The translations under genes and the position numbers were made by a program. Shown piece by piece: positions 1,290 through 52,273 of a DNA stretch of 64,000 nt (its first letter is position 1; each line of letters starts with the position of its first letter). Location of the stretch: IMG/VR virus record IMGVR_UViG_3300037851_000360, positions 24,001 to 88,000 of that record. The stretch is one strand, 5' to 3'. The DNA is from a virus (taxonomy: Duplodnaviria; Caudoviricetes). The notes under the pieces were generated by a model. The model did no database searches. It worked only from the letters and a program-made list of their open reading frames with translations, and was not told where the DNA came from.

Positions 1290-1942
1290 CAGTAAATGAG
1301 AGAGTTGACGAGTTTGTATCGAATGTTGAAGGCTTCCAGCAAAAAGCGAAATTCGGATAGGCACTGATCCTTAGCGCCACCACATAAGTAGCAACCGCTG
1401 AATCGTTTCAGTTCTGAAATGCTAATGTCGGGAACGAACAACGGTTCATCTTCGACTATTCTTAACAAATCGTCAAGCTCAAAATCTTTTGCACCAACAT
1501 CTGTGAAAATCTTCTCCCACTCCTTTGTGGTAATTTCTCGACTATCACGTATGTCGTTCATCACCATATATCTAATGGCTTTTATGATGAATTTTCTCTC
1601 CATACCCGCATCCATCCACCCTCTGAAGAAAGCGTATGTCTTTGGTCTGAAGTCGATTGAGTTCAACCGATCATCCTCAATACCGTTCTCCAAGTAGTAA
1701 TCCACTACCTCGTGTTCAACGTTTCCACCAACCTCGGGATCGTTAAAGAAACAGAGAACCGGTCCGTGGCTCTTGTTAAGAAAATTCGTCAGTGCTGGCA
1801 TAATCTTTCCACACCACTTGTCATAAGCCGGTTGAACGTCGATGACGATGATGGGTGTGTTTCCACCTTCCATGATCAACTGCGCACTTGTTTTCTCAGG
1901 GCGAGTCAATACCTCATTGAAAATCTGACGGTATTCATTCAT
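1289..1942 (-). CDS. isochorismatase/nicotinamidase-like cysteine hydrolase
   Basis: IIVIDVQP (catalytic Asp strand) and LCGGAKDQCL (catalytic Cys region). Confidence 0.65.
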   Translation of the reverse strand: MNEYRQIFNEVLTRPEKTSAQLIMEGGNTPIIVIDVQPAYDKWCGKIMPALTNFLNKSHGPVLCFFNDPEVGGNVEHEVVDYYLENGIEDDRLNSIDFRPKTYAFFRGWMDAGMERKFIIKAIRYMVMNDIRDSREITTKEWEKIFTDVGAKDFELDDLLRIVEDEPLFVPDISISELKRFSGCYLCGGAKDQCLSEFRFLLEAFNIRYKLVNSLIY

Positions 1943-49749: not shown

Positions 49750-50105
49750 GGTACGTATCGTGGCTTGTAGGGTTCTTCATGATCGCAGCACGTTACCCGA
49801 TCTTTCAAAAAGGCAAATAATGCCCAATGGAGGTGAGTATAGTTCGGATCGTCTGACGTATGCATAAATGCGTGAAATAAATCAAACTCGACAGTCTTCT
49901 CGATCCCGAATGCCGGATCGGTTGTCTTGCCGATGTGAATGTTCTTGTCTGGTTTTATAGAGAACGTGTCGGTCATTCCGAAGTCATAGACGACGAGAAC
50001 ATCCTTGTTATCGTCAACGAAGTATTCGACCCGGAGCGGTGGATTAAAAGAAATCCACCGGTCCGAGCCTTCGTGAATGCGTTCAAGTGTCAGGATACCG
50101 TTCAT
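49746..50105 (-). CDS. hypothetical protein
   Basis: Coupled ORF (ATGA overlap). Confidence 0.6.
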   Translation of the reverse strand: MNGILTLERIHEGSDRWISFNPPLRVEYFVDDNKDVLVVYDFGMTDTFSIKPDKNIHIGKTTDPAFGIEKTVEFDLFHAFMHTSDDPNYTHLHWALFAFLKDRVTCCDHEEPYKPRYVP

Positions 50106-50863
50106 GGTGTGAGATATGGAAGGTAGAACTTGCGCAGAAGTTCGTTCGCAACTTCCGGCTGGAATGTGCGTGTGTCGATTGTACTGGATTCGTAAGTCTT
50201 TGCCATTTCAGCATCCTTCGCCTCGTAGAGTTTGCGAGCGATTTCACCATTGAACTTGTGAGGGTTCAACTTGATATCCATCATAAGGTCTCGCATTTCT
50301 TTTACTTCCGGAGCCCAATCGGCGTTTGTCCAACGCACGACATAAACTCCGTAGCGATAGAAAACAATACCTGTCTGAAGAAGACGGAGGCAGTGAACCA
50401 TGTTTCGCGGAGAATAACCGAATGCCTGAAGCGACTTGTTGCGCTTGTCTCCGATCTTTCCCGGTCGTGCACCGGAAACGAGAGCAAACTCTCCCTGTGC
50501 ATAACCACGAAGAACGCTGAAAAGACGCTTGCTGTCAAACAGGCAATCGCGCTGTTCACGGATGAGCATCCACTCCGAAGAAGTTTTGTTGAATGCTTCG
50601 TAAGGTGCCCACAGAGATTCGAGTGCTTCCGAGTTTGACTTGGCGCAAAGTTCGAAATAGTGACGAACTTCCTTCAGGTTCAGGTCGTGCCCGTCATCTT
50701 CCTTTGTTTTCTTTACAACGGAGATTTGATGGTCGAACCGATCCAGCCCGACAATCCGAGACGGAAGTGTGTTCATAAAGACGCCACGAACATCCACATC
50801 CGAATCGGGCGTGTTTGTTCCGTAGAGGTGGCTTCCGCCAAGGTATTCGCAGAGTAGTTTCAT
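50102..50863 (-). CDS. Pol-beta-superfamily nucleotidyltransferase (RlaP/PF10127-like)
   Basis: GGSHLYGTNTPDSDVDVRGVF, KSNSEALESL, MVHCLRLL. Confidence 0.8.
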   Translation of the reverse strand: MKLLCEYLGGSHLYGTNTPDSDVDVRGVFMNTLPSRIVGLDRFDHQISVVKKTKEDDGHDLNLKEVRHYFELCAKSNSEALESLWAPYEAFNKTSSEWMLIREQRDCLFDSKRLFSVLRGYAQGEFALVSGARPGKIGDKRNKSLQAFGYSPRNMVHCLRLLQTGIVFYRYGVYVVRWTNADWAPEVKEMRDLMMDIKLNPHKFNGEIARKLYEAKDAEMAKTYESSTIDTRTFQPEVANELLRKFYLPYLTP

Positions 50864-51198: not shown

Positions 51199-51278
51199 CA
51201 AGAATTTGGAATCGAACCCAAAAACATACCAAATGATAAAATAAGGATATCGTGGGTTCGAATGTGATATTTATACAC

Positions 51279-52064
51279 ATGAAACACACAGAAGAGACCC
51301 GAAAATTGTTATCCGAAAAAAGAAAGAAGTGGTTGGCGGAAAATCCGGAAAAGCATGTGTGGAAACGGCACTCCAAGTTCAAGTCGGTTCCATGTGAAAG
51401 GTTGAAAGAAATCTTGATGACGAAAGGAATGGTCTTCGTAGAAGAATATACACCACGGGGTATCAACTACTCAATCGACATAGCATTTCCCGACAAATTG
51501 ATTGGAATAGAAGTGAACGGAAATCAGCATTACGAACGAGATGGAAGATTGAAGGATTACTACGCACAGCGGCAAACCAAACTCGAATCGATGGGATGGA
51601 AGATCGTTCAATTACCATACTCCATGTGTTTTTTTGAATCTACAATTCAGCCTATCATTGATGGAATTAATCAAACAACTCCAACCATTCCGTTTTCATA
51701 CGAAACCTACGTTCCACCGGAAAAAAAAGTTTACGTGTGTGTGGATTGTAAAAAGAAAGTGGGTAAAGGAACCATCCGATGTATGACTTGTAATGGAACA
51801 CATCGAAAAGAATTAAATAACCATCGCATTCCAAACAAGGAGATGCTAACGGAATTGCTGTCTTCCCACTCTTTTGTTTCCGTTGGAAAGATGTACGGTG
51901 TATCGGATAATGCCGTCAGAAAATGGTGTAGGCGATGTGGGTTGAACCCAAAACTGGCGCGGTCGGTGGGAGTCGAACCCACATTTTCAATTCCATTTAC
52001 GGCTAAGAATTTAGAAGATTCCCCCGATTACAACCGCACGATTGGAGCCTCGGGTCGGGATTGA
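51279..52064 (+). CDS. putative homing endonuclease (NUMOD-like, DUF559-like, Zn ribbon, HTH)
   Basis: KHTEETRKLLSEK, YSIDIAFPDKLIGIEVNGNQHY, CVDC/CMTC, VGKMYGVSDNAVRKW; late motif at 51267-51275 supports the MKHT start. Confidence 0.7.
   Translation: MKHTEETRKLLSEKRKKWLAENPEKHVWKRHSKFKSVPCERLKEILMTKGMVFVEEYTPRGINYSIDIAFPDKLIGIEVNGNQHYERDGRLKDYYAQRQTKLESMGWKIVQLPYSMCFFESTIQPIIDGINQTTPTIPFSYETYVPPEKKVYVCVDCKKKVGKGTIRCMTCNGTHRKELNNHRIPNKEMLTELLSSHSFVSVGKMYGVSDNAVRKWCRRCGLNPKLARSVGVEPTFSIPFTAKNLEDSPDYNRTIGASGRD
51955..52037 (-). tRNA. atypical tRNA-Arg(UCU)-like RNA lacking a D-arm
   Basis: Acceptor GCGGTTG/CGACCGC, G73, CCA; T arm GTGGG-TTCGACT-CCCAC; anticodon arm GGAAT-CTTCTAA-ATTCT; only 8 nt between acceptor and anticodon stems; 23-nt variable region. 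Confidence 0.65.
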
Positions 52065-52149
52065 ACCGACAACCACCGGTTTAATCAGGTTCCAAGGTTT
52101 CCCATAGAAACTGAACAAAACCGGTGCTCTGCCATTGAGCTACCGAGGC
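52043..52149 (-). tRNA. trnT: tRNA-Thr(UGU) with a 32-nt insert (52083-52114) in the anticodon loop
   Basis: GCCTCGG/CCGAGGC acceptor, GCTC/GAGC D stem, CCGGT/ACCGG anticodon stem, GTCGG-TTCAATC-CCGAC T arm, encoded CCA; removing the insert restores TT-TGT-AA and 75 nt. Confidence 0.85.
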
Positions 52150-52150
52150 G

Positions 52151-52224
52151 TACCCGTGAGGGGAGTCGAACCCCTGATCTTTTGGATGAAAACCAAATGT
52201 CCTAGGCCACTAGACGACACGGGC
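52151..52224 (-). tRNA. trnE: tRNA-Glu(UUC), CCA not encoded
   Basis: GCCCGTG/CACGGGT acceptor, TTTGG-TTTTCAT-CCAAA anticodon arm, AGGGG-TTCGACT-CCCCT T arm. Confidence 0.92.
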
Positions 52225-52245: not shown

Positions 52246-52273
52246 ACTATGGCGATCTTGGAGAAAATGTCAA
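52246..52273 (-). promoter_or_regulatory. sigma70-like promoter of the tRNA operon, TTGACA-N16-CATAGT
   Basis: 21 nt upstream of the tRNA-Glu 5' end. Confidence 0.55.

What the first reader, a model, noticed from the sequence alone, without database searches (positions are those of the whole stretch)
51955..52037. D-armless tRNA-Arg(UCU)-like RNA with a D-loop-like segment displaced to the variable position
Seen: intact acceptor stem with CCA, T arm and anticodon arm, but only TAATCGGG where the D-arm should be. The 23-nt variable region TAGCCGTAAATGGAATTGAAAAT resembles a D region (TAGC...AATGG) and can form CCG-TAAA-TGG. It lies in a polycistron 5 nt downstream of tRNA-Thr. Known: D-armless tRNAs are typical of animal mitochondria, and bacterial ArgRS uses A20 in the D-loop. 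Inference: an arm-swapped tRNA, or a tRNA mimic/decoy for anticodon nucleases or stringent-response sensors rather than decay, since all stems remain paired.
Basis: partly seen in the sequence, partly recalled or inferred. Interest (0 to 1): 0.7.

Follow-up and report, generated by a model that had tools for sequence, protein, structure and literature searches.

The report
Phage arginine tRNA with rewired D-arm
This 83-base phage gene is very probably a working arginine tRNA that does not fold as the textbook cloverleaf: its D-stem is rebuilt from pieces on either side of the anticodon arm, a conserved phage design that gene finders mostly miss and that I found in no paper.

Summary
On the minus strand at 52037-51955 lies a tRNA-Arg(UCU)-like gene. 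It has a perfect acceptor stem, encoded CCA, a normal anticodon arm and T arm, no D hairpin, and a 23-nt segment before the T arm.

It is not D-armless. In 94 distinct relatives from viral contigs, the 5 nt after U8-A9 pair with a split partner strand. Three of these nt lie just after the anticodon arm. Two lie just after a bulged D-loop-like stretch (U-A-A-N-U-G-G-A). Four of the five pairs are near-fully paired: three covary and one is an invariant C-G. A blind mutual-information scan recovers the same pairs.

A model built without this gene scores it at 93 bits, against about 21 bits for the neighbouring ordinary tRNA-Glu. Family members carry arginine anticodons with invariant C35. They also keep an A after G18-G19 (the A20 position) and show Levitt-type 15-48 covariation.

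The best reading is a functional AGA-decoding tRNA with a permuted core. The decoy and pseudogene readings are disfavoured. The 3D threading and the reason for the rewiring are unknown.

Earlier notes of this scan describe the same design on other DNA. I re-derived it here independently. I found no paper describing it in the library searched.

The parts
52246..52273 (-). Sigma-70-like promoter match (TTGACA, 16 nt, CATAGT) about 22 nt upstream of tRNA-Glu. It is the likely start of the three-tRNA transcript.
   Evidence: 10 of 12 hexamer positions. This is a consensus match only.
52151..52224 (-). Ordinary tRNA-Glu(UUC), first gene of the cluster.
   Evidence: ARAGORN; RF00005, 63.3 bits.
52043..52149 (-). 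tRNA-Thr(UGU)-like gene with a 32-nt insert in the anticodon loop and encoded CCA. It is the second gene of the cluster and the subject of a separate finding.
   Evidence: 57.7 bits with a 35-nt insertion in the loop.
52031..52037 (-). Acceptor stem, 5' strand (tRNA nt 1-7).
   Evidence: The family columns are 97% paired with changes on both sides in all 7 pairs.
52029..52030 (-). U8-A9, conserved in at least 90% of the family.
52024..52028 (-). Single 5' strand of the rewired D-stem (nt 10-14, AUCGG).
   Evidence: It pairs with nt 47-48 and nt 36-38.
52006..52022 (-). Anticodon arm: 5-bp stem and 7-nt loop, with anticodon UCU at 52015-52013.
   Evidence: U33 and C35 are invariant in the family.
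52000..52002 (-). First part of the split partner strand (CCG, nt 36-38). It pairs with CGG at nt 12-14.
   Evidence: C-G in 92 of 92; G-C 77, A-U 12, C-G 4, G-U 1; the third pair is formed in half of the members and is G-C here.
51992..51999 (-). Bulged D-loop-like stretch (U, then AAAUGGA). It carries candidates for A14, A15, G18, G19 and A20.
51990..51991 (-). Second part of the split partner strand (AU, nt 47-48). It pairs with AU at nt 10-11.
   Evidence: G-C 46, A-U 41, C-G 2, U-A 2; and C-G 64, U-A 14, A-U 8, U-G 3.
51983..51989 (-). 7-nt connector UGAAAAU. Its last U behaves like Y48, the partner of residue 15.
   Evidence: A-U 118, G-C 7, G-G 1.
51966..51982 (-). T arm: 5-bp stem and loop UUCGACU.
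51955..51965 (-). Acceptor stem 3' strand, discriminator G and encoded CCA.
51252..52064 (+). Homing-endonuclease-like ORF (weak DUF559/REase-type matches, zinc ribbon, HTH). Its last 36 or so codons run antisense through the tRNA-Arg gene.

Best explanation
The gene encodes a functional elongator tRNA-Arg(UCU) that reads AGA for the phage, with a non-cloverleaf core.

Proposed route (inferred):
- It is transcribed with tRNA-Glu and tRNA-Thr from a promoter-like site upstream.
- It is cut out by host tRNA-processing enzymes.
- It is charged by host ArgRS through C35, U36 and an A20-like residue.

Structure shown by covariation:
- After U8-A9, one 5-nt strand pairs with two separate partner pieces.
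- Three partner nt lie directly 3' of the anticodon arm. Two lie directly 3' of an 8-nt bulge that carries the D-loop signature (A14, R15, G18, G19, A20).
- The anticodon arm therefore occupies the place where the D-loop normally closes the D-stem. The D-loop is a bulge in the opposite strand.
- All pairs are nested, giving a three-way junction with no pseudoknot.

Inferred from the conserved U8, A14, R15-Y48, G18-G19 and T-loop: the usual elbow contacts, and so an L-like shape, are kept. Why the core is rewired is not known.
For: Structure:
- In 94 distinct family members the new helix is paired in 88.5% of cells. Column shuffles give 69% and slid partners give 25-44%. There are 112 cells with changes on both sides.
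- All five helices together are 95.5% paired.
- A blind MI scan with APC correction ranks the proposed pairs on top. The only other pair above the last of them lies inside the anticodon.

Membership:
- Model R2, built without this gene, gives 93.3 bits and no mismatch. Ordinary tRNAs score about 20-34 bits.

Arginine identity:
- All anticodons in the 94-member set are arginine ones (UCU, ACG, UCG, CCU, GCG) with invariant U33 and C35.
- Among members found independently of the search pattern, the residue after G18-G19 is A in 19 of 19 Arg-type genes and U in 8 of 8 Ile- or CUU-type genes.

Tertiary core:
- The residue after GUA and the residue before the T stem covary as A-U 118, G-C 7, G-G 1.

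Use in decoding:
- AGA makes up 140 of 511 Arg codons in 31 long ORFs of the window; AGG makes up 13.
- The gene lies in a tRNA cluster behind a promoter-like site and has CCA encoded.
- Pseudomonas phage IME180 carries this tRNA as its only tRNA.
- Maribacter phage Panino has an ordinary Arg(ACG) plus the rewired Arg(UCU).
- Caulobacter phage Ccr10 has an ordinary Arg(UCU) plus an unannotated rewired Arg(ACG).

Phage restriction:
All 10 are MAG contigs, and those I scanned hold dense tRNA arrays.
Against: - There is no expression, processing or aminoacylation data.
- Nearest-neighbour energies do not favour the fold. The proposed structure is -16.9 kcal/mol against an MFE of -22.9, and the z-score of the MFE is only -0.95.
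- Several conserved D-loop and T-loop columns were fixed by my search pattern, so their invariance in the 94-member set is partly ascertainment. The pattern-independent hits relieve this only in part.
- Gap-filling is only a tendency. Of 34 loci that also hold an ordinary tRNA-Arg, 11 have the same anticodon as the rewired one.
- The discriminator is U in 35 of 118 Arg-type members. That is unusual for bacterial tRNA-Arg (my own knowledge).
- A plus-strand ORF overlaps the gene in antisense.
Confidence: 0.75

Rival explanations
1. It is a tRNA mimic or decoy. The RNA is made and folds as described. It titrates or distracts a host tRNA-directed defence enzyme (an anticodon nuclease or 3'-end modifier), or a sensor of uncharged tRNA. 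It does not deliver arginine to the ribosome.
For: - The core is non-canonical.
- Phage tRNAs are known to counter tRNA-cleaving defences (PMC10264068, PMC11555353, PMC11464382).
- An RlaP-family nucleotidyltransferase, a family named for RNA repair, lies about 1 kb downstream on the same strand.
- The neighbouring tRNA-Thr is also abnormal.
Against: - A decoy has no need for several arginine isoacceptor anticodons, an A20-like residue that tracks Arg against Ile identity, 15-48 covariation, an intact 7-bp acceptor stem with CCA, or an anticodon matching a codon the phage uses heavily.
- IME180 keeps this gene as its only tRNA.
Confidence: 0.1
2. It is a decaying tRNA pseudogene that lost its D arm and gained junk sequence, perhaps damaged when the neighbouring homing-endonuclease gene inserted.
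For: - ARAGORN misses it.
- The Rfam tRNA score is low.
- An endonuclease-like ORF overlaps it in antisense.
- The fold z-score is weak.
Against: - The same layout, base for base in register, recurs in more than 100 diverged contigs, with compensatory changes in every helix.
- It occurs in cultured phages whose hosts belong to four bacterial phyla (phylum assignment is my own knowledge).
- In this copy all 22 pairs are standard.
Confidence: 0.03
3. It is an ordinary cloverleaf in another register. ARAGORN's low-threshold model shifts the acceptor stem 8 nt upstream, forms a small D hairpin from CGGU/AUCG, and leaves a long variable arm.
For: ARAGORN at 80% threshold reports a 91-nt tRNA-Arg(UCU) in this register.
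Against: - That acceptor stem has 3 mismatches in 7 and overlaps the CCA of tRNA-Thr.
- In the family, the nucleotides it uses for the D hairpin covary instead with the 3' acceptor strand (97% paired) and with the split partner strand.
Confidence: 0.02
4. It is a charged tRNA used outside bulk translation, for example as a donor for arginyl transfer, a primer, or a regulator of host ArgRS or the stringent response.
For: Nothing specific. It is allowed only because the unusual core could impair binding to EF-Tu or the ribosome while sparing ArgRS.
Against: - The anticodon loops look normal for decoding: U33, a purine at 37 and a 7-nt loop.
- The range of isoacceptors argues for codon reading.
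- E. coli's translation apparatus accepted even a fully D-arm-less tRNA (PMC11551756).
Confidence: 0.05

Closest known systems
Ordinary bacterial and phage tRNA-Arg(UCU), such as E. coli argU or phage T4 tRNA-Arg; Rfam RF00005 cloverleaf
   Same: - 7-bp acceptor stem, 5-bp anticodon stem with a 7-nt loop, and 5-bp T stem with a GUUCGA-type loop.
- U8, G18-G19, an A20-like residue, C35 and R15-Y48.
- Location in a phage tRNA cluster.
- It passes the Rfam cut-off (32.9 against 29 bits).
   Different: - There is no D hairpin between positions 9 and 26.
- The D-stem's 5' strand runs straight into the anticodon arm.
- Its partner strand is split, and the D-loop motif lies 3' of the anticodon arm as a bulge.
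- The junction is three-way, not four-way.
D-arm-less mitochondrial tRNAs of animals, such as mt-tRNA-Ser(UCU/GCU) (reviewed in PMC7609411)
   Same: [quoted passage not shown]
   Different: The mitochondrial tRNAs truly lack the D-stem and the D-loop/T-loop contacts, and they are short and flexible. Here a 4-5 bp D-stem-like helix, G18-G19 and a canonical T-loop are all present, and the RNA is longer than normal (80 nt plus CCA).
Synthetic D-arm-less 'mini HisT' accepted by E. coli translation (PMC11551756)
   Same: It shows that bacterial synthetase, EF-Tu and ribosome can use a tRNA without a normal D arm.
   Different: It is artificial, and its D arm is deleted rather than rewired. That paper states that all known bacterial tRNAs are cloverleaf-shaped.
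allo-tRNAs with 8/4 or 9/3 acceptor/T-stem layouts (PMC5389517)
   Same: They are natural non-standard tRNA architectures, found by mining metagenomes and partly phage-associated.
   Different: Their change is in the lengths of the acceptor and T stems. The D arm stays a hairpin in its usual place. Here the acceptor/T layout is the standard 7/5.
Circularly permuted tRNA genes of the red alga Cyanidioschyzon merolae (my own knowledge, not checked here)
   Same: The order of tRNA segments along the gene differs from the textbook order.
   Different: Those genes are processed through a circular intermediate into an ordinary cloverleaf tRNA. Here both termini are the normal acceptor ends, and the permutation is internal and would remain in the mature RNA.

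Membership tests
   93.3 bits, E 2e-23, against R2, which does not contain this gene. Members score 79-100 bits and ordinary tRNAs 20-34 bits.
   A-U and U-A here. In the family both pairs covary and 95.7% of cells are paired.
   CGG with CCG here. In the family: C-G invariant; G-C, A-U and C-G alternating with no unpaired case; third pair optional.
   UAAAUGGA and a U before the T stem here. In the family: A-U 118, G-C 7, G-G 1.
   Loop CUUCUAA here. U33 and C35 are invariant in 94 members.
Canonical cloverleaf tRNA (Rfam RF00005) | Score above the gathering threshold | tested here: met
   32.9 against 29 bits.
Canonical cloverleaf tRNA (Rfam RF00005) | D hairpin (3-4 bp stem closing a 7-11 nt loop) between positions 9 and 26 | tested here: not met
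   Only 6 nt lie between U8-A9 and the anticodon stem. cmscan deletes 15 model positions there.
Canonical cloverleaf tRNA (Rfam RF00005) | Acceptor stem, anticodon arm and T arm of standard size | tested here: met
   Stems of 7, 5 and 5 bp, all standard pairs.
D-arm-less (mitochondrial-type) tRNA | No D-stem, and loss of the D-loop/T-loop elbow motifs | tested here: not met
   A covarying 4-5 bp helix replaces the D-stem. The G-G and GUUCGA motifs are present.
Class II tRNA (long variable arm: Leu, Ser, Tyr) | The extra segment before the T arm forms its own stem-loop | tested here: not met
   The only local hairpin (CCG/UGG) has no change on both sides in 94 members, and its 5' strand covaries with a distant partner.
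Functional arginine acceptor (substrate of bacterial ArgRS) | Identity elements A20, C35 and U36 or G36 (established for E. coli; my own knowledge) | tested here: inconclusive
   C35 and U36 are present. An A follows G18-G19 and tracks Arg against Ile identity in the family. Whether it occupies the spatial position of A20 cannot be told from sequence, and charging was not tested.

The most novel reading that the evidence does not exclude
The rewired core is an adaptation, not a frozen accident. It keeps recognition by ArgRS, EF-Tu and the ribosome. It removes the D-arm or core geometry that some host tRNA-directed defence enzyme (nuclease or modifier) needs. Phages would then carry defence-proof arginine tRNAs, and isoleucine ones built on the same plan. 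If so, this is a natural, widespread, non-cloverleaf tRNA fold working in bacterial cells.
Probability: 0.25. Interest if true: 0.9.

Novelty: new variant of a known kind. Interest (0 to 1): 0.8.

Why it matters
- A 2020 review and a 2024 research paper hold that cytosolic and bacterial tRNAs are all cloverleaf-shaped (PMC7609411, PMC11551756). A conserved, covarying, phage-wide tRNA in which the D-loop and the anticodon arm have changed places would be a natural exception.
- It would show how much rewiring of the core the L-shape and the translation machinery tolerate.
- Standard finders miss most of these genes. ARAGORN called 15 of 126. Deposited phage records leave them unannotated or cover them with protein-coding calls. 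Phage tRNA repertoires and codon-compensation or counter-defence analyses therefore undercount arginine tRNAs.
- Cultured carriers exist (the Pseudomonas PA11/IME180 group, Caulobacter Ccr10, Maribacter Panino), so the question can be tested directly.

Tried and rejected
- Neighbour-protein searches for syntenic relatives found nothing: the RlaP-like and the 228-aa protein against viral contigs.
- Two first DNA patterns were too narrow, giving 0 and 2 hits.
- BLAST hits in Streptomyces phages cover the D-loop-like and T-arm part only. Neither model scores that unannotated stretch of phage CeilingFan as a member. I left it unresolved and did not count it.
- Single-sequence folding neither predicts nor favours the rewired helix. 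Support rests on comparison alone.
- The test of whether rewired and ordinary Arg tRNAs have complementary anticodons within a locus gave only a weak tendency: 23 of 34 loci without overlap. I do not lean on it.
- Seven literature searches found no description of this layout. The library lacks most subscription-journal papers, so this is not proof of absence.
- I could not build a 3D model. Two threadings of the D-like helix relative to the anticodon stem remain open.

Full report
**What is there**

The window is part of an 88-kb IMG/VR record of a tailed phage. CheckV estimates the record as 43% complete.

On the minus strand a promoter-like site lies at 52273-52246. Three tRNA-type genes follow with almost no spacers:
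- tRNA-Glu(UUC) at 52224-52151.
- A tRNA-Thr(UGU)-like gene with a 32-nt insert in its anticodon loop, at 52149-52043.
- The gene in question, at 52037-51955.

Read 5' to 3', the gene in question has:
- a 7-bp acceptor stem;
- U8-A9;
- six more nucleotides;
- a 5-bp anticodon stem with loop CUUCUAA;
- a 23-nt segment;
- a standard T arm;
- the acceptor 3' strand, discriminator G and CCA.

Rfam's tRNA model accepts the gene at 32.9 bits only by deleting the D arm. ARAGORN does not call it at default settings.

**Relatives**

Protein-based searches for syntenic relatives failed. BLAST of the RNA itself found the same layout, in register, in two cultured phages:
- Maribacter phage Panino, where the stretch is annotated as a hypothetical protein.
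- Pseudomonas phage IME180, where it is unannotated.

A pattern taken from the conserved 3' half left all candidate pairing positions free. The same pattern returned only 10 contigs among 185,579 prokaryotic species genomes. All 10 are MAG contigs, and those I scanned hold dense tRNA arrays typical of phages.

I aligned 94 distinct sequences as A1.

**The structure**

In A1 the two nucleotides after U8-A9 covary with the two nucleotides that follow the G-G-A of the D-loop-like stretch:
- first pair: G-C 46, A-U 41, C-G 2, U-A 2;
- second pair: C-G 64, U-A 14, A-U 8, U-G 3.

The next three nucleotides pair with the three that follow 'UAN' after the anticodon arm:
- C-G invariant;
- G-C 77, A-U 12, C-G 4, G-U 1, with none unpaired;
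- a third pair formed in about half of the members.

Controls for the new helix alone:
- observed: 88.5% of cells paired;
- column shuffles: 69%;
- partners slid by 1-3 columns: 25-44%;
- cells with changes on both sides: 112, against 32 expected.

A mutual-information scan made without any structure input puts the proposed pairs at the top. The only other pair above the last of them lies inside the anticodon.

The RNA therefore has a D-stem-like helix of 4-5 bp. Its 5' strand is continuous. Its partner strand is split by an 8-nt bulge of the form U-A-R-N-U-G-G-A. The anticodon arm sits at the end of this helix, where a D-loop normally would. All pairs are nested.

In the window's copy all five pairs are Watson-Crick.

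Model R2 was built from 126 hits in other loci and does not contain this gene. It scores the gene at 93.3 bits, E 2e-23, with no non-standard pair. The neighbouring ordinary tRNA-Glu gets 20.8 bits.

**Signs that it is a working arginine tRNA**

- All 94 sequences carry arginine anticodons (UCU most often, then ACG, UCG, CCU, GCG), and U33 and C35 are invariant.
- Model searches of the fetched loci found 28 further copies that do not fit my search pattern. This removes part of the ascertainment bias.
- In those copies the residue after G18-G19 is A in all 19 Arg-type genes where it can be read. It is U in all 8 genes of the same layout that carry Ile (UAU, GAU) or CUU anticodons. A20 is the main D-loop identity element of bacterial ArgRS (established knowledge, not tested here).
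- The residue after G-U-A and the residue just before the T stem covary as A-U (118) or G-C (7), with one G-G exception. This is the signature of the 15-48 Levitt pair.
- Together with U8, G18-G19 and the T-loop, this suggests that the normal elbow and core contacts are kept. That step is inference.
- In the window, AGA is the second commonest Arg codon (140 of 511) and AGG is rare.
- Among cultured phages, IME180 has this gene as its only tRNA.
- Panino pairs an ordinary Arg(ACG) with the rewired Arg(UCU).
- Caulobacter phage Ccr10 pairs an ordinary Arg(UCU) with an unannotated rewired Arg(ACG).
- PA11 and a Microbacterium phage also score as members. The Microbacterium copy is a shorter variant without the 2-bp segment.

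**What is not shown**

- There are no expression or charging data.
- Nearest-neighbour energy does not favour the fold: -16.9 against an MFE of -22.9 kcal/mol, and z = -0.95 for the MFE.
- Complementarity with ordinary Arg tRNAs is only a tendency: 11 of 34 loci duplicate the anticodon.
- I cannot decide the 3D threading. The simplest reading stacks the new helix on the anticodon stem, as the D-stem does in ordinary tRNA, with strand roles exchanged. Only one nucleotide lies between G19 and the helix, which argues that the 2-bp segment lies at the elbow end. This needs modelling or a solved structure.
- A motif of the form U-A-N-N-C-G occurs twice, after the acceptor stem and again after the anticodon arm. 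This hints at an origin by internal duplication followed by loss. That is speculation.

**Rivals**

- A pseudogene is all but excluded by the covariation.
- ARAGORN's shifted 91-nt cloverleaf has a poor acceptor stem and contradicts the family's covariation.
- A pure decoy cannot be excluded without experiments. It explains the identity-element and isoacceptor patterns poorly.

**Context in the literature and in this scan**

A 2020 review of non-canonical tRNAs does not mention phage or virus tRNAs. A 2024 paper states that all known bacterial tRNAs are cloverleaf-shaped (PMC7609411, PMC11551756). Seven full-text searches found no description of this layout. Work on phage tRNAs as counter-defence supplies a plausible but untested reason for an altered core (PMC10264068, PMC11555353, PMC11464382).

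Earlier notes of this scan report the same design on other genomes. One note says part of such a claim later fell, without saying which part. I re-derived the structure here from my own data and limit the claim to what the calls above show.

**Verdict**

'Arm-swapped tRNA' is essentially right. 'D-armless' and 'decoy' are not supported. The gene is a member of a widespread class of phage tRNA-Arg with a rewired D-arm. It is very probably functional, and its architecture is apparently undescribed.

Noticed in passing
window 52043-52149 (-): The upstream tRNA-Thr(UGU)-like gene has a 32-nt insert in its anticodon loop that folds into a stable extended hairpin (-48.7 kcal/mol, z -5.45). It is too short for a group I intron. 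Depending on the excision point, the anticodon would read UGU, UUU or AUU.
   Followed up: partly
genome coordinates 1405-1480 (-), upstream of the window; ORFs across window 2209-63415: The phage carries a tRNA with anticodon CUA (amber-reading). None of 31 long ORFs ends in TAG (TAA 25, TGA 6). This suggests that TAG is avoided or reassigned.
   Followed up: partly
window 51252-52064 (+): An endonuclease-like ORF (weak DUF559, REase and RAP matches, a Cys4 zinc ribbon, an HTH-like tail) runs on the opposite strand. Its last 36 or so codons are antisense to the tRNA-Arg gene, and its stop lies inside the tRNA-Thr gene. In Pseudomonas phage PA11 an HNH endonuclease CDS likewise abuts and overlaps the rewired tRNA gene (L143, CDS 756-1208, tRNA 1182-1264).
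   Followed up: partly
window 50102-50863 (-): A protein with an RlaP-family (RNA-repair-associated Pol-beta type) nucleotidyltransferase domain lies downstream of the tRNA cluster on the same strand. It is preceded by promoter-like sites with the same hexamers as the one upstream of the tRNAs.
   Followed up: no
L039:923-1009, L120:3141-3225, L074:741-826, L040:11975-12060, L029:7509-7594, L048:690-775, L105:1123-1209, L049:11000-11082: The same rewired layout occurs with isoleucine anticodons (UAU, GAU) and once with CUU. These copies have U instead of A after G18-G19. They score 52-68 bits against the Arg-based model, so the design is not confined to arginine.
   Followed up: partly
L140:2975-3055 (Streptomyces phage CeilingFan, between tRNA-Val and tRNA-Leu): An unannotated tRNA-like stretch has good acceptor and T arms and a D-loop-like motif before the T arm. 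Its middle part fits neither the ordinary nor the rewired model. It is conserved in about 20 related Streptomyces phages by BLAST.
   Followed up: partly
L132:1648-1929: Three rewired tRNA-Arg genes (UCG, CCU, UCU) stand in tandem on a MAG contig, separated by 4 and 24 nt. The contig otherwise looks like a phage tRNA array.
   Followed up: no
L005:1435-1542 (Maribacter phage Panino, PANI_CDS0068): The deposited record annotates a 35-aa hypothetical protein over the 5' half of the rewired tRNA-Arg gene. This is probably a spurious call.
   Followed up: no
A1 columns 10-15 and 35-42 (window 52030-52025 and 52005-52000): A motif of the form U-A-N-N-C-G appears twice in most members, once after the acceptor stem and once after the anticodon arm. 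The self-complementary C-G core forms two of the new pairs. This hints at an origin by internal duplication.
   Followed up: no
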